Part shown: piece by piece, positions 37,727 to 60,500 of the stretch
How the letters are laid out: each line of letters begins with the position of its first letter
Position numbering within the stretch: the first letter of the stretch is position 1
DNA from: Schmidtea polychroa
Lineage: Eukaryota
Direction: 5' to 3'
Length of the DNA: 64,000 bases
Assembly: GCA_044892525.1 (NCBI GenBank)
Contig: CM097885.1
Location: forward strand, 200,260,001 to 200,324,000
Program-made: the position numbers and the translations under genes
Notes under the pieces: model-generated
Seen by the model: only the letters and a program-made list of their open reading frames with translations
What the model was told of the DNA's origin: nothing
Databases searched by the model: none

Positions 37727-38191
37727 GGGGACCTGTCAAAAGAGCTCACGACAAAAGGACGCCGACATAAGAGCGCATACATAAGAGCGCAAACTAAAGA
37801 TCGAAAAACAATATTTAATAAATAGGAACAAGAAAATTAACTCAGATCAGACAGACGGCATCGTTTGATGTTAACTATTTATTGTTTCATTGAAAAACTA
37901 ATTGTTCAGTTTCTTTAACTAAAAACTGGTCTAATCAACTGAACGTTTGCGGGCATCTTAACTATAACAGACTATCAACTGAAGTCCAATTATTCAAAAC
38001 GCAATCTAACAACACATACAAAGATTTTAAATGTTAGGCCTAAAGTGAGAATATAAAATGAAATGATATGTAACAAAATGACAGGAAGTTCAAACTAATA
38101 AAACGTTTCTTTATAGTTGCATTTATACTGCTAAGTTGTGGGCTATACCTCGTAGGTAGTCTTATGTCGGCGCTCTTTTGTCGGGGTGCCC
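37727..38191. mobile_element. MULE-like MITE
   Basis: Imperfect TIRs ggg(g/c)acc...gacaaaag..gccgacataag; flanks tatctatat / tatctat, the right one apparently cut by the LTR insertion. Confidence 0.55.
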
Positions 38192-38198
38192 TATCTAT

Positions 38199-41100: not shown

Positions 41101-42433
41101 CGGTCATTTATTAACTGGATGTTCCACCTACTGAGTTTCTTCACCCCTCACGACACACCCAAGAAGGCATTCATTGCTGCCACCTCCTTGCACCGTCATG
41201 AGGGACCAATCAACTCTTTTCCATTCAATCAAATCAACAATATAATAATCAAACTGAATGATAGAAAATGCATAAATAAAATTTACCCGGCGACCATATC
41301 ATTTGGATCTCCGAGTATGATGTTGCTCCTCCTACATGATCGAAACCTCATCGTCTCCTTGGTGGATCTCTAATATGACAAATATCACTCTCTACAAATA
41401 TCACATTCTCTTTTCAGCATGTTCGTGATTTCTTATGCATACCAACCTTTCCACGGTGGTGTCCTCTACTGCAGTGCAATTCCAACTCGTCCACATCATA
41501 CTGGGAGCTCTCAGATGGTACAGTCGTCGGTACCATGAAGAAAGGCAACTTTTCATTTAAATAAATTTATTATAAGAAATTGTTTTATTATATTTATAAT
41601 GATTAACTAAATTAAACTAATAACCATAAATAAAACAACTGTCGAGGCATACCTTGAGTTTCGAAAACTGAAGTTAAATCGGTTGAATTTAAAATTTTTC
41701 CCGAATGGATTTGTAGTTTGGCCTCTATATATTTCTTCCTCGGTTTGGTTTGGTAATCTCTGAACTAGTTCGCTGTAGGATAATTAAAGGTTCCGAAATC
41801 TGTCAAGTCTGTAGAAAAATTTTTTAAAAGTGGTAGTATATAACGAACCGAAGTTTACCTGTAGAAAAATTTTTTAAAAGTGGTAATCTACAGATATTTT
41901 CCGTTCCTTATATATTATTTTTCGTCCAATCAGGACACGACTTGTTTGTATTTTTACTATTTATTATTATTTTTATGTTTTTTATTATAATATATTAGAT
42001 TTTAATGACTTAACTTATTTCCTATTATTATTTTATTTATTTTCTTATTTTTATTATTTTCCTCCTATTTTTCCTGTGGATTTATTGCTACTTTATTGTA
42101 ATATAATTTTTTGTTTTAATTAGACTTAAAGATAGTTTTATTTTTTATTTATTTCTTAAATTTCTCTTTTATTTGTTGTCACTTTTTTACTTATTTTATT
42201 CTATTTCATCTGCTGGGTCCTAAATCGCTTTATTTCTAAATCTCAAGGGGTTTATTGGGTTTTATTTAGTTTGTTTTACTTATTCTTATTCTCTTATTGA
42301 TATTTTATTGTTCCTTTTTGATTTATTAGCGAGAATTTGATGGTACTTTATATTTTTATTTTATTTCGTTTATTTTTCAAGGATTACTTTTCTATTCGCT
42401 CCAGTTTTCGAAACTCCACGTTTTAGCCCAACA
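38199..42433 (-). repeat. Putative 3' LTR, 4235 bp
   Basis: Bounded by TGTTGG (38199) and CCAACA (42433). TATA-like sequence near 41730, AATAAA near 41570, 27-bp direct repeats 41809-41835 / 41859-41885. The second LTR is not in the window and the PPT is non-canonical. Confidence 0.65.
38739..39500 (-). CDS. LTR-encoded hypothetical protein (CxxC, coiled coil, Pro-rich, basic NLS-like stretch)
   Basis: 253-aa ATG-initiated ORF in GC-richer sequence; CFSC, RKRKRPTRAEKNQKRR. Confidence 0.65.
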   Translation of the reverse strand: MATSSNNAKELRPCFSCADKNADIAQLHLYIGALKKRIDLYEGTWFSPPQMKEERKKILRLEHCRDSLLEESRCQRLTIKAQSEALHKVYTEAELAKRVREFPVLDGTNVFPRHHPSPTSSGSHCQGHGSQLPPIPPPVLSCHQPKIGGPTDPIVAPILVAPIGTTNTEKPPTTRKRKRPTRAEKNQKRRDAMTALETSLSAAKSKIQEITSSHSIPSKEVFRIVPAEGIKYIVDSRLPVDIDEILADGDNFV

Positions 42434-42664
42434 AATCACTCCGGGGCCCGTTAAAATTGCGCCCCGCAATTCACATAATATCATACGTTTAACTCATACC
42501 TTTTTTCGGCATAACAACTAATTTCACGGTCAACATTCACACAAACATAAAATTAAAATAACTAAATAATACTTTAATTAAACAGATAAAAGGACAAATA
42601 TAAGCAAGCAGTGGCCACTTTAGGTGACCGGATTTATACACACAAAGTTTATGAATGGTCGATG

Positions 42665-43291
42665 TCACATGATCTCAAGGTTCGGAATGTCTTGGTTGGT
42701 TGAATTCTGGGTCGGATGGCTGGTTGAAGTTGTTATCGTGGGGAGCTGGATTGTAACAGGCATTTGGTCAGGAGATAGATTTTGTTGCATTTGGTCGGGT
42801 GGGTTTGGTTGTTGAAAATGTACTGCTCGTTTATGTTTATTTTTCGATCGTGGGTTCTTTCTTTCGTGTTTCTCGGATAGTGACTGGTTTCTTCTCCATG
42901 TTCGATGAATATCATACGCTTTCCAGATGACTAGTGCGCAGATGATAAGGGTTTCACTGATGGTAGTATAGAGTAAGACTTGGCTTTCTTTTACTTCCTT
43001 CTTCATGATGATTTCCTTCAAGGATTGTTGGGTGGTTTGTTCTTGTAAGAGAATTTCGAGCTGTTCGATTTTTTGGGTTTGTAGGTGGAGTTGCATTTGA
43101 AGTTTTTGCCAGACGGCTTTGTTCCAGCATTGTTTCGGGATGTTGTTGGAGAGCTTTCTTTCGCTTTTCAGTTTGGTTAACGGGTTTTGCTGTTTCTCGG
43201 GATTCTCCCAGAATGTTGGGATTGGCTGCCACATGGGTATTCCGTTTATCGCTATCATCATTATTGTCACCAGGGTTGCTCCGAACCACAT
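42665..43291 (-). CDS. Accessory type I membrane-like protein
   Basis: Hydrophobic N-terminus MWFGATLVTIMMIAING, coiled coil, TM-like LLYTTISETLIICALVIW, basic and Q/P-rich tail. Confidence 0.7.
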   Translation of the reverse strand: MWFGATLVTIMMIAINGIPMWQPIPTFWENPEKQQNPLTKLKSERKLSNNIPKQCWNKAVWQKLQMQLHLQTQKIEQLEILLQEQTTQQSLKEIIMKKEVKESQVLLYTTISETLIICALVIWKAYDIHRTWRRNQSLSEKHERKNPRSKNKHKRAVHFQQPNPPDQMQQNLSPDQMPVTIQLPTITTSTSHPTQNSTNQDIPNLEIM

Positions 43292-43346
43292 ACTACTATA
43301 CGAAAATTTTTATTTACAATTATTTACATTGATCATTCATCTTTAA

Positions 43347-44048
43347 TTATTGCCGGGTTTTCTTTTTACGGGTTTTCTCGGATGTTCTCATCACTCTCGT
43401 TTCTGCTTTTATTACTCGTTTTCTCAATTCGGGTAGTACTTTTAATTGTTTGTCTCTTTCGTCTAACTGTTGCCTTAGGGTTATTATTTTTTCTTTTAGT
43501 GCTTTTATTTCTTGTGTTGCTCTTTCGAGGTTTTTATGGTTCATTATCTGTAGAAAATCATTTTCCCTTTCCCCGTCTTCTTCGTTGTCTATTTCCTGGT
43601 ATTTGTTGTTCATTCGTCTCATTATCTCACATTCTTTCTGTTTTTGGTGTAGTTGGAGTTGTAACTCTTTCAGGCTTTCTTGGTGTTTCCGTGCCTCGGT
43701 TTTCCAATAGTCACTAATCACTTCGTCGGCCTTTCGACTGGCCCTCTCCTGCCATAATTCTTCCGTGATCTTTTCCCAATTTCTCCCTCGCTTTCTTTGC
43801 TCGTGAAGCCATTCGTTTTCTTCCTCTACTTCTTTCTTTACTCCTTCTAACAAGATATATTCTCTTTTCAATACTTTAATCATTTTTCGATTATCTCTCC
43901 ACCTTTCAACTAATCTTTCGTTTTCCTGTCTCTCTTCTTGTAATTCTTCCTTGATAGTTTTCTTCCTCTCTACTTCATCAACTTCAATTTCTCCCTCTTC
44001 TAACTCGATTATAGATGTTATGCTGGGTTGTCCGTTTTCAGTGTTCAT
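43347..44048 (-). CDS. Accessory coiled-coil protein
   Basis: 233-aa ATG ORF, E/K/R-rich heptads, upstream TATAAGC. Confidence 0.75.
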   Translation of the reverse strand: MNTENGQPSITSIIELEEGEIEVDEVERKKTIKEELQEERQENERLVERWRDNRKMIKVLKREYILLEGVKKEVEEENEWLHEQRKRGRNWEKITEELWQERASRKADEVISDYWKTEARKHQESLKELQLQLHQKQKECEIMRRMNNKYQEIDNEEDGERENDFLQIMNHKNLERATQEIKALKEKIITLRQQLDERDKQLKVLPELRKRVIKAETRVMRTSEKTRKKKTRQ

Positions 44049-44222
44049 TTTCTATAATATATACATAATTAATAATTGCGCTACAGTGCGGCTTATACTT
44101 ATACATTTATATGTTATTTTATAATCAGGGTTACAGTCCCTTTCATACTTTTACTGTACCATTAATTTTTTTGGTTGGGATACAGGTCCCGATTTTTATA
44201 TTTTTTATCTTTCCTTTTATCT

Positions 44223-45260
44223 TTATACAAAGGTCTCTTCCTGGCCTACATATCCCTCATCGCTTTCTACTGACGTTTGTAATTGGAGTGCGATGGGATC
44301 AAATGGGATGTAGTACCGGGGAATCTGCGCTCTAAGTTCTTGCACTTCGTCTCTTAGTGCTCTTGACACGTTAAGTTCCTCGTCCAACAGGTATGTTAGA
44401 TACCTGGTTTCATCGTCTCTTACCTCTATCTGTTTTTCTAGCTCTTCCGCTTTTTCGCCGTTTTCCCATTTCTTGATCTCTATCTCCAGATTTTTAAGAT
44501 TTTCGTTATACATTTTCCTTTCGTTTTCTAACTTTTTGTTTTTCCCCGCCAGTACCATATTTCTCTGCTCCAGAGCTCCTTGGTATCCGTTGACATCTCG
44601 TTCTAGTTCTGCGACCTTATTCACCAGTTCCACGAGTCGTCCTGACTGTTGAAGTATCAGTTCTTCCATTGCGGCATTCTCGTGCTCCCTTATGGAGATT
44701 TTCATGGCTAGATGTCTTTCAAATTCCATGGCTTTGGTCTGCCATGTTTGGCTTCGGGTCGCAATCTTTCTGAGCCGTTTCAGTTCTTCTCTTATGACCA
44801 GATTTTCCTCCCATTTGCCTTGTTCGCTTTCGTATTCTAATCTCATAGGCAATTCTTTCATTTCTTTTTTCATCTCTTTGTTCTGCCGCTTCCAGTTTCG
44901 GGCTTCTGCCAATAGGTGATTCATTTTCCTTCCTTCCTTTTGTTTTTCTGCTTCTCGTTTTGTGTTTTCGTCCGTCAATCGTTTCCGTGCTTCCTGCACT
45001 AACTGTTTTAAATAGTGGCTGTGCGCTTCTTGGCGAGTGTTTTCCAATGATGCCCACTTAGAGGCTCTTTTGCATGCTTCTGCTTCGGCTCTTAAATTGT
45101 TTACTAACCACTGATATTTGTTATTCTCGTATTCCCTGGCCTCTTCGAGATGGTTGTGGGTCTGGTTCGTCAATTGTAACATTACTTTGACCCATTTTCC
45201 CTTATGGATTTTATTGACTTTGGTTTCGTGGTTTGGGGCTTCAGTTCCTTCTTGTGTCAT
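44223..45260 (-). CDS. Accessory coiled-coil protein
   Basis: 345-aa ATG ORF, long heptad repeats, upstream TATAAGC. Confidence 0.75.
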   Translation of the reverse strand: MTQEGTEAPNHETKVNKIHKGKWVKVMLQLTNQTHNHLEEAREYENNKYQWLVNNLRAEAEACKRASKWASLENTRQEAHSHYLKQLVQEARKRLTDENTKREAEKQKEGRKMNHLLAEARNWKRQNKEMKKEMKELPMRLEYESEQGKWEENLVIREELKRLRKIATRSQTWQTKAMEFERHLAMKISIREHENAAMEELILQQSGRLVELVNKVAELERDVNGYQGALEQRNMVLAGKNKKLENERKMYNENLKNLEIEIKKWENGEKAEELEKQIEVRDDETRYLTYLLDEELNVSRALRDEVQELRAQIPRYYIPFDPIALQLQTSVESDEGYVGQEETFV

Positions 45261-45480
45261 CTTTGTCTAAATAACGATATCATTAACTTAACGTTGTACG
45301 CTTATATCTGGTTTATTATTTATTTATTTTTATAATTCGTTATAGGAGTTGTTTTAGGAGTTTTTCGCTTAAGTTTACCTTTGGTAGATTTGGGGGGAAT
45401 TTTTCTACACTACTATATAATATTTTACTGGATATATACGCCGATATTTACAATTAGTATATACAAAATTATTCGTCTCT

Positions 45481-46869
45481 CTACTCAGTCCTACCCTTCC
45501 CGTCTCGCCTCACCGCTATTTTCATGTATATAGTGTCGTTTCTCGTCATGTCTTCTACTTTCCGCTGTAGGATGAAATTTGGTGCTCCAGTTGCTGGTCC
45601 TTCTTCTTCCAAGGGCCTTTGGTAACATACGAGGTTTCCCGCTGTATGGAAACTCTGTTCGTGTATACTTTGATAGTTCATCATTGCGAGGTCTATTTTT
45701 GCTTTGAATGGCCATTCTATTAACTCGTCGTATGGCCCTTTGCACATCAAGAAGAATACTGAGAAATGCGTTCCGTATGCACTTCCATCCCCATTGGGGT
45801 ATGCTTTCATTTTCATTTTATACCCGTTTTTCCATGAGTAGAATGCTGGACTTAGTAATGTTGTATCCTTTCCATTTCTCGCTCTCTGCATCTTCTCTTT
45901 TACTCCCGTTATTTTCCATATGTACGGAGCCGTAGGTATTAATTCGTTGAGGTTTAATTCGCTTACTTTTTGATGTAGTTCTTTCACCATAATGTTGCTA
46001 GTTTCTACTAGATCTGTCTGTATCTTTGTACTTGTTCTCGCCTCTTCAAATGCTTCCTTTTCTTCCAATAGTTCTTTTACCAACGCTTTTAGCGAGACTA
46101 TTTCTCTTTCTAAGTTTTCGGTTTTCCTTTCGTTTTCCTGTAATACCGTTGACCATATTTCCGCGTGTGTTGATACGTTTTCTGCTAGATGTTGGGGTAA
46201 TTCCCCTCGGTGTAATTGTTTCGGACATCCCCATTTTCCTAGCACACACGTTATCTTTTTTCTTTCACACTCTTTTAGATGTTGAGCGAGTTTTATTACT
46301 CCGGGTTTATCGCATTTGTTGGGGCATTCTCCTCTGAATTCTGCGCACACTTTCTCCTCTTGTATGTTGTGATGTTGACTGATTAGTTTCTTCCAGGTGT
46401 CGTTTTCTCCGCAATACTCGCATTTCTCTAGTCTTTCTTCGCATCGACTTTGATGTTCTGCTTCTTCATTGACTTTAATCTCTTCTTGGCAACGTTTGCA
46501 TTGACTGATTTTATACTCACATTGCTCCATATGTTGCCTCACTTCCCATATCACTCCTCGCCAATTACATGGGGTGTTTTTACATCCTAGGTTTGCATTC
46601 AACATATCTTTTACAGCTGCTTTATCTTCGTTTGTATCTCCCAAACTTGTTATCATTGTTTCTTTGCATACTGGGCACCATTGTGGTCCCTTCTTTATTA
46701 TCTCCTCTACACATTCTCTGCACATTCTGCATCCACATCTGGTTTGGTGAGGTTCTCTTAATAAGCTCTTGCATATTCCACACGTTACATGGTTGTGTAT
46801 TCGAATTGTGGTGGACTTTCTGATTTGTTCAACAATTTCTCTGAATTCTTCTCGTTGTCGCTTATCCAT
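45481..46869 (-). CDS. TRAF: TNF receptor-associated factor homolog (RING - TRAF zinc fingers - coiled coil - MATH), intronless, inside the retroelement
   Basis: CGIC...CGCRMCREC...CPVC RING; CKNTPCNW...HMEQC and CEYC zinc fingers; MATH YIWKI...SPAFYS...GYKM...YPNGDGSAYGTHFSVFF...GPYDELIEWPF. Confidence 0.93.
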   Translation of the reverse strand: MDKRQREEFREIVEQIRKSTTIRIHNHVTCGICKSLLREPHQTRCGCRMCRECVEEIIKKGPQWCPVCKETMITSLGDTNEDKAAVKDMLNANLGCKNTPCNWRGVIWEVRQHMEQCEYKISQCKRCQEEIKVNEEAEHQSRCEERLEKCEYCGENDTWKKLISQHHNIQEEKVCAEFRGECPNKCDKPGVIKLAQHLKECERKKITCVLGKWGCPKQLHRGELPQHLAENVSTHAEIWSTVLQENERKTENLEREIVSLKALVKELLEEKEAFEEARTSTKIQTDLVETSNIMVKELHQKVSELNLNELIPTAPYIWKITGVKEKMQRARNGKDTTLLSPAFYSWKNGYKMKMKAYPNGDGSAYGTHFSVFFLMCKGPYDELIEWPFKAKIDLAMMNYQSIHEQSFHTAGNLVCYQRPLEEEGPATGAPNFILQRKVEDMTRNDTIYMKIAVRRDGKGRTE

Positions 46870-46958
46870 TTCTATAATTATATGTATACATATATTCGTT
46901 ACTGGTACAGTTTCGTATTTTTATTTACATTTATTTACATTGCTATTTTAGGTTATAT

Positions 46959-47342
46959 TTATTGGCTGGAAGAGTCGGCCTCTTGTCCGCCCTCTTCCCT
47001 GTTGGTTAACCATTCTGACCAGTCTTCTATCTCCTCTCGCTCCATCTCTTCCGCGATTCTTATTAACTCCTCTTCTTGCACCTGGCTGTATCGTGATATT
47101 CGGTCTATCTCTCGCTGCATTTGTTCTATTTTCATTCGTTGGTCTTCGATTATTCTTACATAATTGAAGCCTTTATTTAAACTTTCGACTAAGCTTCTTT
47201 GTACAGCGAGTCCTTGTTCCTGTAAATTCGAAATCACTTGAGTTAACATTGCACATTGTTGTTTCCACATCTCCTCGGTTGTTGTACTGTGGTTTACTTC
47301 CTCGCCTATTCGCTCCATTCTTAATTTATATATACTTTTCAA
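46959..47342 (-). CDS. Small accessory coiled-coil protein
   Basis: 127-aa ORF (TTG start; first Met at 47318), acidic W-containing tail, upstream TATAAGC. Confidence 0.6.
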   Translation of the reverse strand: MKSIYKLRMERIGEEVNHSTTTEEMWKQQCAMLTQVISNLQEQGLAVQRSLVESLNKGFNYVRIIEDQRMKIEQMQREIDRISRYSQVQEEELIRIAEEMEREEIEDWSEWLTNREEGGQEADSSSQ

Positions 47343-47486
47343 TCCTTATCTAATTTTATTTTCATATTAATTATCCCCATCATTATATACTATTGATACC
47401 GCGCTTATATAAAAATATAGAATACTGTTATATAAATAAATATTTCCTACTTACTTTTTACAATCTATATACAGTCATAATCCTTT

Positions 47487-50400
47487 CTATATACGTGAGC
47501 TTGGAGGGCGCTGAGCATTCCAGGCCTCCACCCACTGTTCCTGCTTGATATTACTTGGTCGTTTTACACGATGTTGAAAATTTCTTATTCTGGCCATTTC
47601 TAGTTCTCCGTGATGCCGTCTATCTTTGATTATTTTTATTGTCCCCCCCGTTATGATTAAAAAGGCCCCTGTTATTATTATGCCGCTGATCCACATCATC
47701 TGTTTTATGCTTATAATTTCCGCTTTTTCCTTGCTCGTTATTGTTGATATTGCTTCTGTGCTTTTTAGATTACCGTCTTTGCCATTTCCTTTCATCATTC
47801 CTCGTATTCTTGCTATTTCCTCGTTCATACCTTCCTTTGCCATTTTTTGTATTTTCTCCATCTCCTCCTCGGATACATAATTGTCTTGATGTTTCTCACT
47901 GTTTTTCTTGCGTTTTCCTTGCTCATCTTTTTCATCATCGATTTTTCTTTTCTTCCCTCTTTTCCCAGGGTATCGTCGACATTCTCTCGCTGTATCTTTT
48001 CTCCAGATGCATATTGTGTATTCTTTTGGAGGTTGTTGCTGTATTACATATTGTAGACAGTCTTCACCCGGTCTTAATCTTGCGATGCAGACTTTGTGTT
48101 CTTTTCTTGGCTGGAGTTGCGTTATCACTACCTCACCTCCTTTTCCCAGGTGTACCTCCTTCCCTTTGACTTTCGTTATTCTCTTTCCTTCTCGATTTCG
48201 GTATGCTTCTTGTATTCTTACTTCCGTTATTGGTTCTGCATCTTCATTTTTTAACACTAGTCTCTGATAAGCTCTAGACATACATCTTCCTAATATACAC
48301 CTTTCTTTTAAATCCCATTCTTCTTTTAGATCCCATTGCTGCTCTTGTACTTGTTTTTTCTTTTCTTGTTTTAGTTCTTCCTCTTTGTTGTCCTTATTTT
48401 CCGTTTCTTTGGCTTCTTTTATCGTTCTCATTCCTCCCTGGGCTGTTATCATTTCCACCATTGTTAGTACGAGTATCATTATCATCATATTTGTCTCCAT
48501 TTCTTTGTTGGTAAAAAGTAGGCATACCCTCTGTTTTCCACTATTCGTCTTTTCTTCTTGCTTCATTCGGTTTCTCGGGTTATTTTCCTCTTTTTTCCTA
48601 CTCGCGTCGTTATTTTCTTGATTATTCTCCTCTGATTTCTCTTTCTCTTTATTCCCGTTTCGACCTTTTTCATTATTATCGTCGTCTTTATCGTCTTTAT
48701 CGTCTTTATCTCCCCCGCTATCGTTTAAAATGTCGTCCTCGACATTTATATCATTCAACAATCTGCGGTATGCCGTTAGCACTCTGTTTCTTGCTAATTT
48801 TGCTTCGAGTTCGAACTCCTTTCTGCCTGTTGCTACATGTCTCTTTCTATTCCATTCTTTCACTAATTCTCTTAATTGTATCCGACGATGTTTCCCGATT
48901 CGCTTTTGTTCGTTTAGATTCTGCGTGAATTTGAGATCTTCCCTGTTTAATACGATCATTATGATTTTCGGAGTTCCTCCTTTTGTTAGTGTATTTTTAA
49001 CCATAGCATTTTCTCCGTTTTCGTAGAACTCATTTATATTTATTGCATATTTATTGCTTTGTGGTATTCTCCATGTTAGCAGCAACTTCATGGCTTCTAA
49101 GTTCATCCGTATCGTGTTCCATTGGAACTGTGACGTGTTTTTACAGATATTTTCTACCTCAGTTCTTGTAGCATTTTTACAAATGAATCTAATCATTTCC
49201 AAGTTTGGTTGTATTGTTGCCCAATCCATGGCAGAATTTCCTTCGTTTGATATTTCGTCAAGTCTTGATCCCGATCGATGTAGTATATGTAATGTTTTCG
49301 GGTGTATATTTGTTATGGCTGCATACATCATTGCTGTTTCTCCTTGTTCATTTTTTGCATTAGATTCTTCTCCGAAGTCTCTAAGGATTCTTATGATGGT
49401 TATTGCTCTGTTTTCTTTTGCTGCTAAAATGGCTTGTTGTAATGGTGTTCTTGAGTCTTTTGTTGGTAAGGTGAATGCTAGTGGTATAAATGTTTTTATT
49501 TTTCCTATGTCTAGATTTGTGGTCTGATCTCTTGCGTAGGTGTGTACTGTTTTGGTTATTTTTGCTAGTATCGCTTCATCGGATAGATCTTGCATTTCTT
49601 CAAAGAATACTTCTTTAGCCTTACGTACTACTATCTCTTGGTCGGAGTTTATTGTCTTTGGTTTACTTGTTGTTGCTATATCGGTTATTGGTTGATCGAC
49701 TTGTTCCTCAGACTCTCTTGCTTTTACTTTCTTCCTTTTTATCTTTTTCTTGTTCGAATTGTTAATGCGTTCCTCTGCCGTTAGAACTTGAATAATGCTT
49801 AGGTAAGTTTCTCGAATGTTGTTCATATTTTCCATCATATATAATACACTCACGGTTTCCCAAAATTTTACTTGTACTTTATCGGTAAATTGAGATATAG
49901 CTTTTTCGAAGTTGATAATTCGTTTTCTGATTAGTTGTTCGTCTTTGTGATTTGAGAACTTTATGCCACGTTGTAGTAGTTGATTTGGAATTTCGAATAG
50001 GTGATGTCCTCTCATCGCTTCTCTCATCAAGGTATTTTCTCCTTTGGTAAATGTTTCGTTTATATCTACCATATAATCGTTTTTGATCGGGTTCCTCCAT
50101 GCAATTAGTATTCCAGTAATTGTTATTAATTTCTCTTTGATTGCAGTTAATAGCCCGTCATACATGTTTCCTATCTCTCTATTATCCTCATATGATAATA
50201 GATCTACTAAGATTATGAAGGCTTCCGTACTTTTCCCTTCGATTGCATGATGTAGTGCATTTTTCTGGTTGTGGTCTTGTGTGGTTATCTTTGACCCAGT
50301 TTCAAGTAATGCGATGATAATATCTTTAGCTTTATCCCGATTGGCTGCTATCATTAGTGGAGTGTAACCTTGGTTGTTTTCTTGATCTGTCGAAATGTTA

Positions 50401-51566
50401 CAATCGCGAAATGCTTCAATTGTTTCTAATATCTGTTCGTTACTACCCACCTTTAAAAGCTTGTGCAGGGGTGTGTCTCCGTAATGGTCTGTGATCGTGA
50501 ATAATATAGGCCATTGACTTTTAACTACCCTGAGCAATGGGTGTGTTCTTTCTCGGTTTGCATAATTTTCGATCATTGTTAGCAGACCTCCCAATATCTC
50601 AAAATCTAATCTGTCTTCTGCCCATCCGGGCATTTTAACTTTTACTTCCTTTATGATTTTCTCGGCTTCTGATGGTTGTAACCCTAATCGATTACCTGTT
50701 GGTTCGTTTATTTGCTGTAACATGTTTATTCTATACGTTTGTGATCTTGTCGTTAGTGTACGTCCTTCTGGCTGACTGGTGGCGGTTTTCGGAATTGGCT
50801 TACATCGTGCAACATTTACGTATATTGGTCTTGTAAAAGGGTTGTTCACTAATCGTACTCTTACATTAGTTTCTCCGACGAATAGAATCTCATACGGCCC
50901 TTTACCGTTTCGTTGTAATTTTTTGGTGGTTCCTGGAATTAATTCTGGTGTTTCAATCATCACCCAATCGCCTGTTTGAAACGTATGCTGTTTGACGTTT
51001 TTCTTTCTATCATGTAACTCTTTGTAACTTTCTTGATAAAATTTTATATTCAATCCTGCGGTTTCCCAGATTTCCTGCATTCTTTCCTTGAACTTGGTTA
51101 CATAATCGTCTATTTCCATGTATTGTGATATCGGTGGCTGATATTCTAAATCCATTGGCATATTGCATTCTCTGCCGTACATCAACTTGAACGGACTCAT
51201 CTTTGTGGACGCGTGAATCGACATTCTGTAAGCCATTAGACATAATTTTATATATTCATCCCAGTCTCGTTGATGACGATCGACATAATTTGATAACATT
51301 TGAATCAGTGTTCCATTGAATCTTTCTGTCATACCATTAGTTTGTGGATGGTACGGTGATGTTCTTAATTTTGCGATCTTGAAGTAGTTGGTGACTTCGC
51401 TCATTATTTCGCTCATGAAATTCGTTCCTTGATCCGTCAGTATTTGTTTCGGCGTTCCATATCGACAACATATTTCCTCTACTAATATTTTTGCGATTGT
51501 TCTTGCTTTCTGATCTGCCATTGCGAATGCTTCGGGGAATTTTGTCAAATAATCTGTGATTACCAA
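47487..51566 (-). CDS. Polyprotein C-terminal part: integrase core, two ankyrin-repeat modules, signal/TM-anchored protein
   Basis: ITDYLTKF, LTDQGTNF, TERFNGTL (DDE); KGPYEI; GDTPLH, GYTPLMIAA, GETAMMYAA ankyrins; MMIMILVLTMV and WISGIIITGAFLIITGG hydrophobic segments. Confidence 0.93.
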   Translation of the reverse strand: MVITDYLTKFPEAFAMADQKARTIAKILVEEICCRYGTPKQILTDQGTNFMSEIMSEVTNYFKIAKLRTSPYHPQTNGMTERFNGTLIQMLSNYVDRHQRDWDEYIKLCLMAYRMSIHASTKMSPFKLMYGRECNMPMDLEYQPPISQYMEIDDYVTKFKERMQEIWETAGLNIKFYQESYKELHDRKKNVKQHTFQTGDWVMIETPELIPGTTKKLQRNGKGPYEILFVGETNVRVRLVNNPFTRPIYVNVARCKPIPKTATSQPEGRTLTTRSQTYRINMLQQINEPTGNRLGLQPSEAEKIIKEVKVKMPGWAEDRLDFEILGGLLTMIENYANRERTHPLLRVVKSQWPILFTITDHYGDTPLHKLLKVGSNEQILETIEAFRDCNISTDQENNQGYTPLMIAANRDKAKDIIIALLETGSKITTQDHNQKNALHHAIEGKSTEAFIILVDLLSYEDNREIGNMYDGLLTAIKEKLITITGILIAWRNPIKNDYMVDINETFTKGENTLMREAMRGHHLFEIPNQLLQRGIKFSNHKDEQLIRKRIINFEKAISQFTDKVQVKFWETVSVLYMMENMNNIRETYLSIIQVLTAEERINNSNKKKIKRKKVKARESEEQVDQPITDIATTSKPKTINSDQEIVVRKAKEVFFEEMQDLSDEAILAKITKTVHTYARDQTTNLDIGKIKTFIPLAFTLPTKDSRTPLQQAILAAKENRAITIIRILRDFGEESNAKNEQGETAMMYAAITNIHPKTLHILHRSGSRLDEISNEGNSAMDWATIQPNLEMIRFICKNATRTEVENICKNTSQFQWNTIRMNLEAMKLLLTWRIPQSNKYAININEFYENGENAMVKNTLTKGGTPKIIMIVLNREDLKFTQNLNEQKRIGKHRRIQLRELVKEWNRKRHVATGRKEFELEAKLARNRVLTAYRRLLNDINVEDDILNDSGGDKDDKDDKDDDNNEKGRNGNKEKEKSEENNQENNDASRKKEENNPRNRMKQEEKTNSGKQRVCLLFTNKEMETNMMIMILVLTMVEMITAQGGMRTIKEAKETENKDNKEEELKQEKKKQVQEQQWDLKEEWDLKERCILGRCMSRAYQRLVLKNEDAEPITEVRIQEAYRNREGKRITKVKGKEVHLGKGGEVVITQLQPRKEHKVCIARLRPGEDCLQYVIQQQPPKEYTICIWRKDTARECRRYPGKRGKKRKIDDEKDEQGKRKKNSEKHQDNYVSEEEMEKIQKMAKEGMNEEIARIRGMMKGNGKDGNLKSTEAISTITSKEKAEIISIKQMMWISGIIITGAFLIITGGTIKIIKDRRHHGELEMARIRNFQHRVKRPSNIKQEQWVEAWNAQRPPSSRI

Positions 51567-54500
51567 TATATATATATATTTCCTCTATCTGATTCTGGTA
51601 GTGGACCGACTACGTCCATTGATATCATTGTCATTGGTTCTGCTGGTACTGGCATTGGCTTTAATGGTGCCTTCCATTTTGTTCCCGTGTTTTTTCTGGT
51701 TGCGCAAGTTATGCAATTTTTCACCCATTCCGTTACATCCTCGGTCAATGTAGGCCAAAAATATTTTTGTTTCATTCGTGCCAACGTCTTTTTAGATGAC
51801 ATATGTCCTCCGAGTCTTCCGTCATGGTATTGTGTTAGTAGATCTTTACGTCTATTCTCGGGAATGCACATTAGTCTTTTCTCGCCATCCATTATCAATA
51901 ACCAATCTTTCTCGATAATATATCGATGTCGATGTTTATCCATATGCTCCTTCAATTTTTGATCTTTCTCATATACCTCTGCTTTCCCTGTTTTCACATA
52001 TTCAATGATTTGCTTCAACTCTGTATCCTCTTGTTGGTCTTTCCGTAATTGGCAAAAATCTAAATCTTCTGCTACCATCAGACATATTCGTTGCATTTCG
52101 TGATCTACTAAATCTGGAAAGATAAATCTGGACATACAATCCGCATTGGCATTCGCTCTTCCCGCTTTGAATTTTATGAACGGTGAATATTCTTGTAACT
52201 GCATTGCCCATCGCATCAATCTACTTGAAGCTTCTTTGTGTTGACCAAGCCATACTAATGGTTGATGATCCGTGGTGATACATATTTCGTGTCCCCATAA
52301 CAAATATCGAAAATGTTTAATTGCTTGTATGATTGCTAACGCTTCTCTCTCGGTTACGGAATAGTTTTTCTCGTGCTTTTTAAACGTTCTACTGTAGTAT
52401 CCAATCACTCTTTCTTTTCCTTCTTCATCCAGTTGTCCTAATATTGCTCCGGCTGCATATCCACTTGCATCTGTTGCTAATAGGAACGGTTTCTTGAAAT
52501 CAGGATGTACTAGTATTGGGGCTTCAATTAATTTATCTCGCAATGTCTCAAACGCTTTTTGTTGTTCTGCACCCCAAATAAATGAAATATCCTTTTTCAC
52601 TAATTCCTGTATTGGTTTCGCAATACCTGCATAGTTTTTGATGAATTTTCGATAATATCCGCATAATCCGAGAAATTCTTGAACTTGGGTGACAGTTTTT
52701 GGTGCTGGACATGTTTTTATTTTTTCTATGTTTCTTGGATCTGGTTCTTTGCCTTTTGCTGACACTATGTGTCCTAAGAACGTAACCTTTTCTTTTGCCC
52801 AATCACATTTGGATGGTTTAAGTTTCAGTTTCCATTGTCGTAATCGAACGAACACGTTTCTGATATCTTCCAAATGTTGTTCGAAAGTTGCTGAATATAT
52901 TAATAAATCATCAATATATACCATACACTGCTTGATCCCGTGTGTGACAAAATTCATACATCTCTGGAATGATGCTGGGGCATTGGTCAGTCCGAACGGC
53001 ATTTTCCTGAATTGGTATAGATCTCGGCCCAATGTGAATGCTGTTTTCTCTTTGTCTTCCTCCTTGACTTTGATCTGCCAATATCCACTTTTCAGATCTA
53101 AAGATGTAAAATATGCGGCCCCCTGTAACATAAGTAACATCTCATTGATGTCTGGTAAAGGGTATGTGTCTCTTTTTGTTACTGCATTTAATTTCCGATA
53201 ATCGATACAGAATCTCTGAGTACCGTCTTTTTTCTTCACCATGACTACTGGAAATTGCCATGGCGAACAACTTGGTTCGATCACTTGTGCATCTAGCATT
53301 TTTTGTACTTCTGCTTCGGCTATCTCTTTTTGCTTCTCTGCTAGTTTGTATGGACGTAGTGCGATTGGAGTTTCGTCTATTAATGGTATTGCGTGTAGTG
53401 TAACATCGCATGCTCCCAAATCTAAATCCGAAATTGCGAATATATCTTTATATTCTATCAATAATTGTTGAAGTCTCTCCTTTTCTTTTTCCGTTAGCAA
53501 GGTGCTATCAATTATCCATAATTCGTCCGCTTTCGTTGTTTCGTTGGTGATTTTTGGTAATTCGATGTCTATCATGGGTGTCAATCTACCCAATCTTTCA
53601 TTTTCATATATGATCTTGTCTTCTTCCTCGAAATTTGTGATGTTAATTGGTATTTCCCCGTCTTCATTTATTGTTATTATTTCTCTTGCTAATGGTAATT
53701 CTCGTCGTTTTTCGAATGATTTGCTTGGCTCAAAAATGACTTCTCCTTCCATTCCTGCATCCACTTTTATTTGACATATCATCTGTGATTTTGCGGGTAC
53801 AATTATTTTCTCCGGACATCTAATTATTGCGTTCATCTTGCATATTCTACCCATTTTGTCTTTTAGACACATTGTTGTTAAATCGATTACTACTTCCTTA
53901 AACAATTCCGGCATTAAATCCGTTCCGATTATACATGGTTCACTCAGTTTGGGTATCACCGCTAGATACGTTTCAATTTCGTTATCCTGATATCGTAACG
54001 TAGTCCACCATCTTCCTACTACGTCTACGGTTTCTTTACTGCATGCAATAATATGGATAGTTGTTTGTTCGATATCTTTCCAACATTTACTGGGTATTTG
54101 GTTTATTGCTATTGCTGATACGTTTGCTCCGGTATCTATCATTGCGCTTGTCTCTTTCCCGTTGATTTGGATCATGACTGTTACTGCCGCACCTCCTGGT
54201 GAACTCATCACTGCTATCGTTCTTACGTCGTCCGCTTGGTCTACACTTTTCGTTCTTCGGGTCGGCATATAGTTCATCCCTGGTTGACTTGGTAACTGTG
54301 GATACCTATTTTGTGTCATGGTCAAAGCTGTTTGTTGTCCAACGATATCTGGTGGTATATAACTTCCGTTGGCTATCCAGGTATTTGTTTTTTCTTTCTC
54401 CCAATATGGTGCTGTTTCTATTGGCTTTTCATTCGGGTTTCTACTTGGATATGGGTATTTGTCATTCCCGTTGTCGTCATCATCACTATCGCTGCTGTTT

Positions 54501-57500
54501 GATCGATTCCTAAATCTGTCTAAGAATTTTGGTTTGTTCTTTTTCAGTTGCGTCCTTGTTGCTTCATCATACATTGTTTTCCGAAATCGTCTACCGACTT
54601 CCTCGTCAGTTCCTTTTATTTTTGTCAGTATTTTGATCAATCGTTTTATTCTATGTATGTCTTTAGAATGACCGTGCAACACCATTGTTTTTGCCAAAAA
54701 TGGTAGAAAGCCTACTATCAATTTCCAATTTACCTTCTTTTCTCTCTTATAGATATCAAAACACGCTAACATTTGAGTCAATATTACTCTAACTATCTGG
54801 ATAATAAGAATGATTCCCAATATTCCTGCCATCATTTGACCGAACACTAGAAATCTTCCCCACATTGCTTTCATCATGTTTGACGTGGCTTGTTGAAAAT
54901 GATCAGGTGACAATAATAGTTCGTAATTGGGGCCTGACTGGAAATTCGTTCCCCCAGTTATGGTAACCATATTCGATAGAATGGATTCCCGTCTTGCTGG
55001 GAATAATACGTTTAATCGTGCCGTTTCTAAATCCTCTGGTGAGTACATACCTGTTTTTGACACATCAATTGGTTTGAAATCTTGTTCTGTTGCGAGTTCT
55101 ATTAGTCCAAACTTTTTAGGCTCTTGTACTTCGGTTTTTACTGGTAACATTATCCATTTCCCATCGGGTTTTTCATATAACGGTCCGTATGCATTTGAAC
55201 AGTTAAAGGTGTTCGGATAAAATCCAATTGGGTTCATGATTCGAGTGACGGGTTGAACGAATCTGTTTCGCCCTTTGTAACTAATTTCCAACTCGTTTGC
55301 GCATTTCCCTGGTGGAATTGTGGGCTTTCTTGGCAGTCGCGCAAATGTCTTGGTACATGCATATGTATACATTACCTCTCCCACCATTCTACCAAAATGT
55401 CCATCCGGTAACGGGAGTGATGGCATTGTGTTATCTGGGTGTGTTATTGCGATGGCTAATTTTGTTTTTAGTATCTCTTTATTCAATGAACAGTCATTTT
55501 GTATAAGATCGTAATACACTTTTTGCATTGTCGTTTGTCCTCGGTGGAACAAGAAGTCCATCTTATTATTGGCATACAGGTACAATTTTACGTCCTCCGT
55601 TGCTACCTTTCCCACTGCTCGGTCTATTACTTGCCTTGACATGTAGATACCTGCGTAGTTCGTCCGGTATACTATACTGTCACATTTGGTGGTCTCTTTT
55701 TCTCTAATGAATCTCATGCCGATGTCTGGATCATCGGTAATTAATGCCGTTGGTGTTTTTTGGGTTGTGAGTCTCTTTTCTTTGGGGGATGGCGGAACTG
55801 GTTTCCCATTTCGCATCCTTACGTTTCCATTCTCTTCATCGTCATCCTCGTTTTCGTAAATTTCTCCTTTTACTTCATTGAATAGAGCACTTTTTAACAA
55901 TTGGAGTCGGCATTTTTGGGTGTTAGCTTCATATATTATAGTCGAAATCCCCGTTCTACACACGTTTTCCGTAGCTCTGCATGCTGGGTTGGTTTTCATT
56001 TGATAGTTGTTTGCGTCGAATTGTGCTTCGTATTCCTTCAACTCCACTGTGTAGGACTCAATTACTACTACTCCTGATATCACCTCTCCTCTGATCGTAT
56101 ATGTGCCTCCGTTACATGATCCATCCGTTGATTTTACTCGTCCGGCTACATAGATACTTTCCGTCTTGATCATTCCGCTTTGTCCGTGTATTGTTACTCC
56201 ATCCCTGATTCTCATCGCTCCGGTTCTAAAAAGCTCTTTACAGTCTTCCCGTTGTATAGGTACTATTTCTTTATCTAATCCAGGTAATATGAGGGTTGAA
56301 TATGAGTATTGTCCACAGTAATATGCCAACACTTTCTTCGATACTACGCATTCTCTAGCTTGCGTTCTAATGAAATCTGATTCTTGGTATACGTGATAGG
56401 AGACTTTCTTTTTTACTATATCTAATTTATTCGGAGACGCCTGTCTACATTCCTCTATATCTCTCAGGGAGTATCTTTCTCCTATTATCGAATTGTCACA
56501 GTCGTAAATAGTAAATCCCGCGGCTCCACTGGTGCAGAGCATCCATATCATCATGGTCATCATTAGTGAATTAATCGACGCTTTTCTGCTGGCTGGGTCT
56601 TTCAATGGCAATTCCCATTCTAGCTTGTTTAGTAATTTCTTCAACCGAATTTGCATTGATCTCTCTTGCTCGTTTTTTCGTGGCGCTTGTATGAGTCTTT
56701 TCCACCCACCGGCGCGGATAATATGTGGTTCGATTGTATTTTCGATGATTGTAACGGTCATTTCTACATGATTTGCGAATTGTTTGTTAGGTATTTTCCT
56801 CGCTGCTAATCCCATCAAATTGTACATTAGATACGTTAATACTACTAAATGATGTTCGTCGTCGTTTGCGTTTAAAGTTAATTGTTCAATTACTCTTCTT
56901 GTCTCTTCCCAATCGGTTTTAGTGGTTTTTGTCTTCTCTTTGATTAATTTCGGAATTATTCCGGATATTGTATTCCATAGTTGTCTGGCGTCTACGCTTG
57001 CTACTTTTCGTTGCCATAACCGTCGCAATTGTGGGTTCGTTATTATTAGCATATCTTTTACTAGCTCTCGTATCCATTTTTCGCCTCTTTCGATAGTTGG
57101 CTGGGCCTCTTTTAGATCCCACACTATTTTATCCAGTTTCTCTAATCTGACTTGTCCTTGTTCTTGTTTCAGTTGTTCTCTAGTTTTAAATTCCGGTTTT
57201 TCTCCTTGCTTCTTGGGTCTCCCTTTTGCCCGTTTTTCCATCATTGTTCCGGCTTCCCTTGTATTTTCATAATTCGGGTTTCTCTCGTTATCCGTTCTTG
57301 GCAATGAGCTATCGTTGTTTCTCAGCCATTCGTTCCATTCGTCTATTATTTTGTCCGTTTGACCTTCTGGTGTTGCTTTCGTTGGTCCTTTCTGTCGTTG
57401 GAATTGTTCGTCGGTTTCGGTTTCTGTTGTATTATCGATAATCTCCTCGATACTCAGCTTATTTGGCTGCTGATAGCTAGTTGACGGTTGGCTTGTTGTC

Positions 57501-60500
57501 CATATTTCGGCTCCTGTCGGCCATCTTACCAGAATTGGTGATCTTTCTCCAGCTCCTTCATCGCTGTCTTCCAATATAATTTCCTCGATTTCCTCGGTTT
57601 CATTCGTTTTACTTGCCACTTTGTTAGGGCTTGGTGTACTCAAGCTACCTTTCGTAGGTTTACTGGATTTGCTCTTCCTTTTAATCGGTTTTCCCAATGT
57701 TTCTGCCATTGTCAATACATTGATCTCCCCCAATCTCATGGGTGTTATTCCGACATCTGCATTATCATCCAACGATTTTCCGAATAGTTGTAGGTGAAAT
57801 GGAGTTTCGTATGCTAATTTCTTTTTTAACTCTCTGATCTTTGTTGTTGGATGTACTTCTGTATCCTCAATGCTTTTGTCGGGATACTTGACTCGGATAC
57901 GATACCTTTCCTGGGTATCTTGTGCCCATTCTTGGTTTCTCCATTTCCTAATAATTTGTTCTAGCTGTTCTGGGTACCATTCGTTATATTGTCTGTATTC
58001 CTCAATCGCTTTCGCCATTTCTCTTAGATTGTGGATATTCTCTGATGTCTTTAGGATGATGTTAGCCAATGCTATTACTTGACGTTTTTGATTTTTTGTT
58101 CCCGTTGCTAAGATATCACCTAATTGTTTATATCTTTCCTTCTCTTCTCGTTCTCGAGCTTCCATCGCTTCTTCGCTGTCCATATCGGCATATTCGCGTT
58201 CTTTCTTTCTCATCGCATGAATATGTCTGGTTTCCGTTTCACTTTCTGATGTAACATCCGTTTCGCTTTCGTCGTCCGATGTCGATTCTATTTCGTCCTC
58301 TTCGTATTTTGGAGGTTCATCTTCCTCTTCTTCTGATTCGCTTTCTATCTCACCAATGTCTGTTTCCACGAAAATCCCTTTCCTGATTTCCCATTCTTTG
58401 TTTTCCGCATTCCACGTCCTTTCCCATGGGGTTCGTCTGCAGGATCTAACACTTAGTTTCTTTATTTTTCCTTGAAGCTCTTTTTCTTTTAGCCACTGTT
58501 GATGAATTTCAATTATCTCTACTGATTTTTGATATAGCGTTTTCATCCTGTCTCGTATTTCTTTCTGGTATGTTATATCTCTTGTTCGGAATTCGTCCAT
58601 GGGCAATATTCTGATGATTTGATGATTATCCCACATTCCCATTTCGCTTAGCGAGGTGTCGTCTTCGGCCCGTAATATTATTTTATCGTACATCATGACT
58701 ACGTCATCTATCATCCCGTCGCTACTCTCGCTTCGTACTTTTTCCGTTATCTCTTGGTTTATCTTGGTTACTAAGTCATCCACCGTACTCTGATTACTCA
58801 TCTTTATTCGTCGTTTCTCCTCGTTTGGTAACCATATGGTTATTTCTAATTTCTGCGGTTGCGTTTCTTTCAACCTTCCATATTTGTGGATCAAATTTAT
58901 GGTTCTCCAATCGCTCATCCTGAGCAATTCTGTATCTCGTAATCGGCTCATTAGTTCATGCATGTCTGGAGTTCGTCTTGCTATGAGTAAATCCCAGTTA
59001 TCTTCGACTTGTTCTTGAATTTGTTTGATTAATTTATCTAGATTTCGTCGCAAGGTGCATTGTTTTATTTGTTCCAGCTTCAGCTTGATGTTAAAATCAT
59101 ACTCGGCCTTGGCGTCTTTAGCCCATTCGTGAATATTTGCTGGTTGCTTCTCTTTATACAATTTCAATATTTGAGTTTCTCCTGGCCAGATCAATGCATC
59201 TATTAGGTGCATGTCTGGCTTAATTTGTTCTCCTTGATATTGATATAAATACTCTTTCTTTCTCGAGCTGCCCAAATGTTCTCTTATCCAATCAAAAAGC
59301 TCGTCTGTGACTGCATTTTTTATCCATATTCTCTCGAGTCCTTTACTCGTTCCGATTTTTATTACATAGCGTGTTGTCTCCGCTTGTTTCATTTTTTCCA
59401 TATACTTCTTTATTATCGCTTTTTCCTCGTTTGGTATTAGATCTTTTTCGTTTCTTTCTAGTTTCATTATCTTTTGTAAGAAGCGTTTATATGGTATAAG
59501 GTCGATGAACTCCTGGTTTCTTACTACCACTGGAAGTATTTCCTTTACTTGTTTTATCGCTTCTTCTCTTTCTTTTCTCAATTTCATTTCGATATTCTCG
59601 TCTTCGCTTTCGCTTGTCACGTCGCTTTCTCTTTCATCCTCATCTGCTCCGATCTTTTCTCTTAGTTGGTCGATATTTTCATTTAACTGTAACATTTCTC
59701 CACCAAGGCTACTCACATAATCCTCATCGTCATCTGTTGACAACACCTTCTTTGTTGTCCTCATCATATTAATTCGTAAATTTTTCATTCTTGGTACTTT
59801 CTTTAACTTTTTGTTCTCGAGTATCGTTAGCTCCTCTGAGTCTAATTCTCGTATCATATTATGCTTTAGATGATTAATCTGTTTTCCATTTTCGTTATTT
59901 TCTGCTTCTGCTTCTGTTTTTGTTTGCTCATTTTCTCTTTCGATTTTATCTTTTATCTTTTTCCAAAATATTTTCTGAATTCTCTGATTTCCTTTTAGCG
60001 GTGTTGTTGAATTTTCCTTTTTTGCTGCTGGAATTGTTTCTTTCGGTTTCTCTGGTTCGCTCATAGGTACAACTCTTGGATTTTTACCGTAATTGTAACA
60101 ATATTGCTCCTTTATCTCCTTTACCATCCTCATCATATTTATTCGTAGTGGTTGTTCTTGTCGCTGCTGAATTCGCTCTCTTTTTATCCTTTCTTCTTCA
60201 GCTTGTAGTCTTTGCCATTCTTGTGCATGTTGTTGCACTTCATAATTGTTAAGATTCTCGGTGCTTCTCATCATGCGTATATTCTGGGTTTGTTGTGGTA
60301 CTTGCTCTTGTCTCGGTCTCATCATTTGTTGCATCATCTGCTTCATTTGTGAAATTTCTTGCATCACATTCATTTGCTTTCCCTCACTAGGATTACTTTG
60401 TCGTTGCGGATTTGGTGCATAGTTATTATTTCGCTGTGGTGGTCGTTGCTGTTGGCTCCTTTCTCGACAGTCTCTTGAGATATGACCTGGTTGCCCGCAG

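What the first reader, a model, noticed from the sequence alone, without database searches (positions are those of the whole stretch)
47487..50720. Integrase is followed in frame by a duplicated ankyrin module and a membrane protein
After IN come two ankyrin clusters (about 50500-50050 and 49450-48950) that look like an internal duplication: LIAWRNPIKNDYMVDINE..KGEN versus LLTWRIPQSNKYAININE..NGEN. Then follow a signal-like segment, a Cys-containing beta-rich ectodomain, a TM and a short tail (seen). Viral ankyrin-only proteins often mimic IkB (established for polydnavirus and poxvirus proteins). With TRAF this points to NF-kB-type interference, and the membrane protein could be a second envelope or receptor-binding protein (inference).
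Basis: partly seen in the sequence, partly recalled or inferred. Interest (0 to 1): 0.7.

Follow-up and report, generated by a model that had tools for sequence, protein, structure and literature searches.

The report
Giant retroelement with receptor-like accessory protein
This is the tail end of a giant virus-like jumping gene of a kind already known from planarian flatworms: its ankyrin repeats are known cargo and do not look like NF-kB blockers, but the small surface protein at its very end fills a slot shared by its relatives, where it often resembles an animal cell-surface receptor.

Summary
The anatomy is real. ORF 47487-51584 (minus strand) encodes the integrase core, two ~310-aa ankyrin modules (22% identical, colinear beyond the repeats), an internal signal-like segment, a 250-aa ectodomain, a TM and a 44-aa tail. 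The element is a Burro-type Gag-Env-Pol Ty3/gypsy provirus, probably planarian. Ankyrin, TRAF and in-frame Env are published Burro cargo.

The IkB-mimic reading is weak. IkB proteins are not preferred matches, the module occurs in only 3 of 16 relatives and shifts position, and planarians lack clear NF-kB homologs.

The membrane protein is not a second fusogen. A terminal signal-ectodomain-TM cassette occurs in 13 of 16 relatives (4 of 67 outside the clade). It diverges much faster than Env, and its tail often ends in a PDZ-type motif. One relative's repeat unit folds as fibronectin type III (pLDDT 85, Z 11). The window's own ectodomain has FN3-like motifs by eye only and failed every statistical test.

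Best reading: polyprotein processing releases a cytosolic ankyrin adaptor and a receptor-like surface accessory protein. I did not find the cassette in the papers searched, but Grohme 2018 was unavailable. New variant of a known kind.

The parts
51560..61924 (-). Main polyprotein ORF (3454 codons stop to stop): Gag, CCHC knuckles, accessory insert (weak ubiquitin-like and Bcl-2-like signals), fusion Env, protease, RT, RNase H, integrase zinc finger
   Evidence: Pfam; weak ubiquitin E 0.14 and Bcl-2 E 0.052
51566..51579 (.). 14-nt AT run at the frame break inside integrase; this copy (or its assembly) is broken here
   Evidence: zinc finger and core lie in one protein in all 14 relatives scanned
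50775..51584 (-). Integrase catalytic core and C-terminal domain
   Evidence: rve E 9e-10; 46-55% identity to 14 close relatives
50718..50732 (-). Putative element-protease junction between integrase and ankyrin module A (motif R-I-N-M-L; inferred)
   Evidence: motif defined after the fact; similar motif at the RNase H/integrase junction here and in relatives
49752..50672 (-). Ankyrin module A: helical N-cap, 3 canonical repeats (50175-50489), further degenerate repeats, helical tail
48717..49646 (-). Ankyrin module B, duplicate of A (canonical repeats 49155-49460)
48534..48716 (-). Acidic/charged low-complexity linker
   Evidence: sequence
48516..48530 (-). Second putative protease junction (R-V-C-L-L), just before the signal-like segment (inferred)
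48438..48488 (-). Internal signal-like hydrophobic segment
   Evidence: hydropathy 2.9 over 11 aa; same feature in relatives
47700..48437 (-). Ectodomain of about 250 aa: charged stalks around a six-Cys domain (47964-48302) with FN3-like motifs by eye and a 26-aa tandem repeat
   Evidence: no significant homolog
47625..47693 (-). Transmembrane helix, basic residues on the C-terminal side
47487..47624 (-). 44-aa cytoplasmic tail ending S-R-I (class I PDZ-type end) and stop codon
45481..46920 (-). Accessory TRAF gene (RING, TRAF zinc fingers, MATH)
   Evidence: Pfam (MATH E 8e-25)
42665..47345 (-). Cluster of downstream accessory ORFs (46959-47345, TRAF, 44223-45266, 43347-44051, 42665-43309)

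Best explanation
The region is the accessory C-terminal end of the single ~4,800-aa polyprotein of a Burro-type Ty3/gypsy provirus (Gag-Env-Pol order), most likely of a planarian. SHOWN: domain order, duplication, clade membership, and a clade-wide terminal signal-ectodomain-TM-tail cassette. INFERRED: the polyprotein crosses the ER membrane at least twice in each direction (Env, then this cassette). The element's protease cuts after integrase and before the last signal, releasing a cytosolic two-module ankyrin protein, and host signal peptidase releases a small type I membrane protein. That protein is not a fusogen. It is a fast-evolving, receptor-like surface accessory, FN3-based in most relatives and probably a degenerate FN3 here, anchored by a PDZ-type tail. 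It most likely helps the element at the host cell surface (positioning budding or cell-to-cell spread at epithelial membranes, or acting as a decoy for host ligands). The ankyrin pair is a dispensable binding scaffold that, with TRAF, RING, ubiquitin-like and Bcl-2-like cargo, most likely dampens ubiquitin-dependent stress and cell-death signalling; it is not an IkB derivative.
For: Burro anatomy: in-frame Env between Gag and protease, ankyrin, MATH/TRAF, BCL2, ubiquitin-like, ORF1 of 4,873 aa (PMC6431247 section 7). The window's Env is about 55% identical, by hand count over ~135 residues, to the Smed_errantivirus_5 fragment in supplementary file 3 of PMC13524379. The window groups with 16 unnamed relatives (integrase tree, SH-aLRT 99) and 14 (RT-RNase H tree, 96); quick trees on 40 of 151 proteins each. 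Signal plus TM after integrase: 13 of 16 in the clade versus 4 of 67 other tails of 200 aa or more. Relatives' unit: AlphaFold pLDDT 84.8 with an 11-row alignment; Foldseek 21 hits at E<=0.001, listed rows FN3-type; best Z 11.0, rmsd 1.9, 84 aligned, fibronectin; profile search 48 of 49 hits are FN3-bearing proteins (my reading of the names). Second ectodomain versus Env identity in the five pairs where both could be measured (of 8 pairs tried): 57/94, 44/63, 24/49, 25/57, 24/68%. Tail ends in S/T-x-V/I/L in 8 of 15 versus 4 of 135 other Pol proteins. The junction motif occurs twice in this ORF, at the two module boundaries. BURRO1 transcripts are intestine-enriched and appear in epidermis on PIWI knockdown (PMC8532177, passages).
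Against: The window's ectodomain matches nothing significantly: relatives' unit profile (124 of 1000 shuffles scored as high), profile comparison 0.3%, Pfam 0, PDB sequences 0, 1.84 billion representatives 0, Atlas no usable hit. Its FN3 assignment rests on motifs read by eye. It has 0 sequons and 42% charged residues, against 0-13 sequons and 22-31% in 13 relatives, so it may be decayed or not lumenal. The FN3 units were picked with an FN3-like pattern, so one search is partly circular. Four relatives have a non-FN3 ectodomain by that pattern or by eye (P0070, P0072, P0080, P0160), and P0063 has none. The junction motif was defined after the fact (ORF2: 50 of 2000 shuffles had as many). Relatives are related, so the counts are not independent. 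The host is inferred; the nearby host nuclear-receptor exon did not resolve it. No function was tested, and fast divergence could be relaxed constraint.
Confidence: 0.6

Rival explanations
1. The membrane protein is a virion attachment protein that partners the gB-like fusogen, as herpesvirus gD partners gB (recalled analogy), giving a two-glycoprotein retroelement.
For: It is made from the same polyprotein as Env, keeps its terminal position in 13 of 16 relatives, has a beta-sandwich binding fold in relatives and diverges faster than Env.
Against: The ectodomain type is swapped between subclades. Env-bearing P0084 and close outgroup P0094 have tails of only 76-100 aa. PDZ-type ends and PPxY motifs (3 of 15) suit a cell-surface role as well. 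No particle data exist.
Confidence: 0.22
2. One reading: the ankyrin modules are IkB mimics that, with TRAF, block NF-kB signalling.
For: About 5-6 repeats per module and no DSGxxS degron, as in polydnavirus Ank proteins, which bind Rel dimers (PMC3359993, passages). TRAF is 570 nt downstream. S. mediterranea has seven divergent RHD proteins.
Against: No preferential similarity to IkB. Best matches are relatives' modules (scores 130-196) over the best of 37 generic ankyrin hits (128-129). The module occurs in 3 of 16 relatives, once between Env and protease. No clear NF-kB homolog in the planarian, and knockdown of the closest Relish-like gene did not affect the transgene response tested.
Confidence: 0.1
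3. The tail is neutral or decaying captured sequence in a dead copy.
For: Frame break in integrase; long branches for both modules (2.7 and 3.9); low-complexity, sequon-free ectodomain.
Against: 4.1 kb stay open, both modules keep ankyrin motifs at only 21% identity, and signal, TM and PDZ-type end are kept across relatives that are ~50% identical in integrase.
Confidence: 0.08

Closest known systems
Burro / GYPSM1 giant gypsy elements of planarians (PMC6431247 section 7, read; Grohme 2018 not available)
   Same: One huge polyprotein with Env in frame between Gag and protease; ankyrin repeats, MATH/TRAF, BCL2-like and ubiquitin-like cargo; accessory ORFs; similar total length (3454+1365 codons versus 4,873 and 5,140 aa).
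   Different: TRAF is a full RING-zinc finger-MATH gene downstream of Pol (in ORF1 in Burro1, upstream ORF in D. tigrina). The ankyrin module is duplicated. The section read mentions no terminal membrane protein. No BIR or dUTPase detected in the window.
Platyhelminth GAG-ENV-POL errantiviruses, e.g. Smed_errantivirus_5 (PMC13524379; passages and supplement rows read)
   Same: GAG-ENV-POL order, gB-type Env, 14.5-18 kb listed spans in S. mediterranea; Env fragment about 55% identical by hand count.
   Different: The paper treats Env and Pol. 'Ankyrin' is absent from its main text and 'fibronectin' too; both are absent from its 7 supplements.
Polydnavirus vankyrins / bracovirus Ank (PMC3359993 passages; PMC3757122 abstract start)
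   Same: Viral ankyrin proteins without a degradation signal.
   Different: They are IkB homologs and stand-alone genes; the modules here are polyprotein segments with extra helical caps and no preferential IkB similarity.
Poxvirus ankyrin/PRANC (F-box-like) proteins (recalled)
   Same: Ankyrin repeats followed by a C-terminal helical extension.
   Different: No PRANC, F-box or SOCS-box match.
FN3-containing cell-surface receptors (neogenin/DCC, Dscam, receptor phosphatases, cytokine receptors)
   Same: Signal, FN3 units, TM and motif-bearing tail in the relatives.
   Different: 7-19% identity, no specific donor identified; the window's own domain is not shown to be FN3.

Membership tests
Burro-type giant gypsy element | Env in frame between Gag and protease | tested here: met
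   PF24664 at residues 2054-2393 between Gag/CCHC and protease
Burro-type giant gypsy element | Single polyprotein of about 4,900-5,100 aa | tested here: inconclusive
   3454 + 1365 codons, split by one frame break in integrase
Burro-type giant gypsy element | Ankyrin and MATH/TRAF cargo | tested here: met
Burro-type giant gypsy element | BCL2-like and ubiquitin-like domains before Env | tested here: inconclusive
   Bcl-2 E 0.052, ubiquitin E 0.14, in the expected order but below cut-off; ubiquitin E 4e-5 in relative P0065
Burro-type giant gypsy element | BIR domain; dUTPase-like segment between protease and RT | tested here: inconclusive
   Neither found by Pfam; a RING ORF runs off the window at 64000
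Burro-type giant gypsy element | Paired LTRs, total length over 30 kb | tested here: inconclusive
   No repeat pair between 61900-64000 and 36000-42700; the element appears to run past the window end
Burro-type giant gypsy element | Sequence identity to Burro1-4 | not testable with these tools
   No Burro sequence available; only a hand comparison with a published S. mediterranea Env fragment
IkB / vankyrin | Ankyrin domain closest to the IkB family | tested here: not met
   Bcl-3 rank 60 of 206 for A; no IkB protein in the top 60 of 209 for B
IkB / vankyrin | Binds Rel-homology dimers | not testable with these tools
   No host Rel sequence available
Poxvirus ANK/PRANC cullin adaptors | C-terminal F-box-like or SOCS-box motif | tested here: not met
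   No Pfam match to E 10; no BC-box or F-box pattern
Viral fusion glycoprotein (second Env) | Large glycosylated ectodomain with class I/II/III fusion fold | tested here: not met
   250 aa of which ~110 look globular, 0 sequons, no Pfam match; relatives' unit is FN3
FN3 domain (relatives' unit, P0069) | FN3 beta-sandwich fold | tested here: met
   pLDDT 84.8; Foldseek probability 1.0; Z 11.0, rmsd 1.9, 84 aligned
FN3 domain (window's ectodomain) | FN3 fold or profile match | tested here: inconclusive
   Motifs by eye only; searches gave no significant support

The most novel reading that the evidence does not exclude
This clade of giant endogenous retroviruses of invertebrates uses a two-glycoprotein system made from one polyprotein: a gB-type fusogen before Pol and an exchangeable, host-receptor-derived FN3 attachment or decoy protein after integrase, whose PDZ-type tail directs the element to epithelial junctions. 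That would be a herpesvirus-like division of labour inside an LTR retroelement.
Probability: 0.22. Interest if true: 0.8.

Novelty: new variant of a known kind. Interest (0 to 1): 0.47.

Why it matters
Burro elements are abundant in planarian genomes, and half of their polyprotein was described as unexplained (PMC6431247). If the terminal cassette is a working receptor-like surface protein, it gives a concrete handle on whether and how these elements move between cells, and a case of an LTR element capturing a host receptor fold. It also corrects a tempting default: viral ankyrin plus TRAF need not mean NF-kB interference. The ankyrin cargo itself is already published, which limits the surprise.

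Tried and rejected
Homolog search with both ankyrin modules among longer proteins: 37 hits, all generic ankyrin proteins covering 12-67% of the query. Atlas search with module A: generic ankyrin clusters only. Neither names a donor gene.

Membrane protein: 0 hits in 1.84 billion representatives, PDB sequences, Pfam, phages, Atlas, and the relatives' tails. The single-sequence model was too poor for a fold search.

DNA-level similarity between modules A and B: nothing better than E 0.12, so the duplication is old or saturated. A and B group together at 90/93 but on long branches, so a lineage-specific duplication is likely, not proven.

TRAF-binding motifs in the window's tail: none; 2 of 15 tails have one, so a direct TRAF-tail link was dropped. 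LTR pair: not found in the window. Rfam over 36000-64000: 0. Host identification from a nuclear-receptor exon: uninformative. The careful tree did not finish; quick trees were used. No complex prediction was run, because no host Rel protein was available and the ectodomain has no alignment.

Literature: searches found no description of an FN3 or terminal membrane protein in these elements; one further search timed out. Grohme 2018 and its extended data could not be read and may show these domains. bioRxiv supplements, metagenome contigs and viral contigs stayed unchecked.
Full report
OBSERVATION. The minus strand carries two long frames, 51560-61924 (3454 codons) and 47487-51584 (1365 codons). 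The first holds Gag, CCHC knuckles, a Monjiviricetes-type fusion glycoprotein (E 7e-72), protease, RT, RNase H and the integrase zinc finger. The second holds the integrase core and ankyrin repeats. The break between them falls at a 14-nt AT run, 51566-51579. In all 14 relatives scanned, zinc finger and core are in one protein, so this is a defect of the copy or of the assembly.

THE DUPLICATION. Residues 305-611 and 647-956 of the second frame align colinearly, 22% identical over 311 aa, E 4e-18. Whole modules, pre-repeat caps and post-repeat tails each beat 500 of 500 shuffles, so this is more than generic ankyrin likeness. No DNA similarity is left (best E 0.12). Alignment with three relatives' modules shows a shared unit: helical cap, three canonical repeats, two or three degenerate ones. 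A and B are sisters at 90/93 support on long branches. None of the three relatives has two copies.

THE MEMBRANE PROTEIN. After a charged linker come a short hydrophobic segment (48438-48488), about 250 aa with a six-Cys domain, a TM (47625-47693) and a 44-aa tail. Four of the Cys lie in a 26-aa tandem repeat (0 of 1000 shuffles). Direct searches found no homolog.

WHAT THE ELEMENT IS. Arkhipova and Yushenova (PMC6431247, section 7 read) describe planarian Burro/GYPSM1 elements: one 4,873-5,140-aa ORF, Env in frame between Gag and Pol, with MATH/TRAF, BIR, ankyrin, BCL2-like and ubiquitin-like cargo. The window matches this in order and size, with TRAF as a downstream gene. Its Env is about 55% identical, by my hand count over ~135 residues, to the Smed_errantivirus_5 fragment in a supplement of PMC13524379, where two S. 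mediterranea elements differ more from each other (36%). Flanks of 20-36% GC fit the >70% AT of S. mediterranea (PMC11410931, passages). The host is thus probably a planarian; this is inferred, not shown.

RELATIVES. Searches with RT-RNase H-integrase (120 of 342 hits listed) and integrase (32 hits, 31 new) gave 151 proteins. Sixteen unnamed ones group with the window (integrase tree SH-aLRT 99; RT-RNase H tree 96 for 14 of them; quick trees on 40 of 151 each). The ankyrin module is in 3 of these 16: after integrase in P0074 and P0091, between Env and protease in P0065. Several relatives are partial proteins, so absences are not certain. The module is therefore a movable accessory. In contrast, a fixed hydropathy rule finds signal plus terminal TM after integrase in 13 of 16, against 4 of 67 other tails of 200 aa or more. 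The misses are P0160 (signal below threshold), P0159 (ends before a TM) and P0063. Many tails also carry extra aspartic-protease copies.

FOLD OF THE CASSETTE. An FN3-like pattern found 16 units in 10 of 13 ectodomains. One unit from each of 11 proteins was aligned. Its profile hit 49 PDB sequences at E<=10, 48 of them FN3-bearing by name, 2 at E<0.001; this is partly circular because of how units were picked. The independent check is the model of the P0069 unit: pLDDT 84.8, Foldseek probability 1.0 to FN3 domains, best Z 11.0 to fibronectin. The window's domain shows the same L-x-P-x-x-x-aromatic-x-V motif and a Cys pair placed like the F-G disulfide of LRR-FN3 receptors (recalled), but it scored no better than chance (124 of 1000 shuffles; 0.3%). 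Three relatives (P0070, P0072, P0160) have a small Cys-rich ectodomain instead, so the slot accepts different domains.

CLUES TO FUNCTION. The second ectodomain diverges faster than Env in all five measurable pairs of eight (57/94, 44/63, 24/49, 25/57, 24/68%). Tails end in S/T-x-V/I/L in 8 of 15 (window included) versus 4 of 135 other Pol proteins, and in V/I/L in 13 of 15 versus 21 of 135; reading this as a PDZ-binding end is from established knowledge, and the proteins are related. A recurring motif sits at the RNase H/integrase junction, right after integrase, and right before the signal (defined after the fact; similar motifs at the RNase H/integrase junction of relatives). That suggests protease release of a free ankyrin pair. 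BURRO1 RNA is intestine-enriched and rises in epidermis when PIWI is removed (PMC8532177, passages), which fits an epithelial surface role.

THE NF-kB READING. Vankyrins are IkB homologs that bind Rel dimers (PMC3359993, passages). Here IkB proteins are poor matches, no F-box, SOCS-box or degron is present, and S. mediterranea has seven divergent RHD proteins with no clear NF-kB (PMC13563047, passages). Planarian TRAF-like genes are numerous and tied to cell survival (PMC7586133, title and passages). A general role in ubiquitin and cell-death signalling fits the cargo better. The window's tail has no TRAF-binding motif.

VERDICT. Observation confirmed; interpretation partly supported. Ankyrin in Burro is known, and its duplication is a minor variant. 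The clade-wide terminal receptor-like cassette was not found in the searches named, but Grohme 2018 could not be read. Mechanism confidence 0.6; novelty: new variant of a known kind; interest 0.47.

Noticed in passing
window 42665-43309 (-): A third predicted membrane protein: N-terminal hydrophobic segment, coiled coil, TM (hydropathy 1.96), Pro/Thr/Gln-rich tail; no homolog among the 151 proteins.
   Followed up: partly
window 43347-45266 and 46959-47345 (-): Three coiled-coil accessory ORFs without convincing Pfam match; 44223-45266 ends T-F-V, a class I PDZ-type end.
   Followed up: partly
window 56525-59524 (-): Insert between Gag and Env: by eye three ubiquitin-like units, a possible death-fold/CARD-like helical segment and a Bcl-2-like domain; Pfam support weak.
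   Followed up: partly
window 63610-64000 (-): ORF ending in an IAP-type C3HC4 RING (E 4e-8) that runs off the window; likely an upstream accessory gene of the same element.
   Followed up: partly
window 62589-63026: Tandem array of 73-80-nt units upstream of gag.
   Followed up: no
window 38000-42450: GC-raised region downstream of the accessory ORFs with ORF 38739-39500 (no Pfam match); may be the 3' LTR, whose partner would lie outside the window.
   Followed up: partly
P0063, P0066, P0068, P0070, P0071, P0074, P0075, P0077, P0091 (after integrase): Extra aspartic-protease domains directly after integrase; some relatives also carry extra copies elsewhere.
   Followed up: no
relatives, first 110 aa after the integrase C-terminal domain: Conserved R/K-Y-x-L-R motif in 17 of 18 other proteins by pattern, absent from the window (P0160 has it by eye); resembles the foamy virus Gag chromatin-binding motif (recalled).
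   Followed up: no
P0154 (named Em0003g479a in its source): An unrelated gypsy Pol that also has ankyrin repeats after integrase; its module is not homologous to the clade's (scores 25-49), suggesting independent capture.
   Followed up: partly
P0081, P0159: Two clade members carry bacterial MAG labels in NCBI, probably animal DNA binned with bacteria.
   Followed up: no
window 1983-4703 (-): Polinton/adintovirus-like remains: integrase with PLA2-like domain and a double jelly-roll capsid fragment.
   Followed up: no
window 16268-17446 (-); 9042-9692 (-); 31167-32920: Tc5/pogo-type transposase, hAT fragment, and nested inverted repeats of a DNA transposon.
   Followed up: no
window 33300-34900 (-): Host nuclear-receptor gene with introns (zf-C4); hinge looks thyroid-receptor-like by eye, not resolved.
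   Followed up: partly
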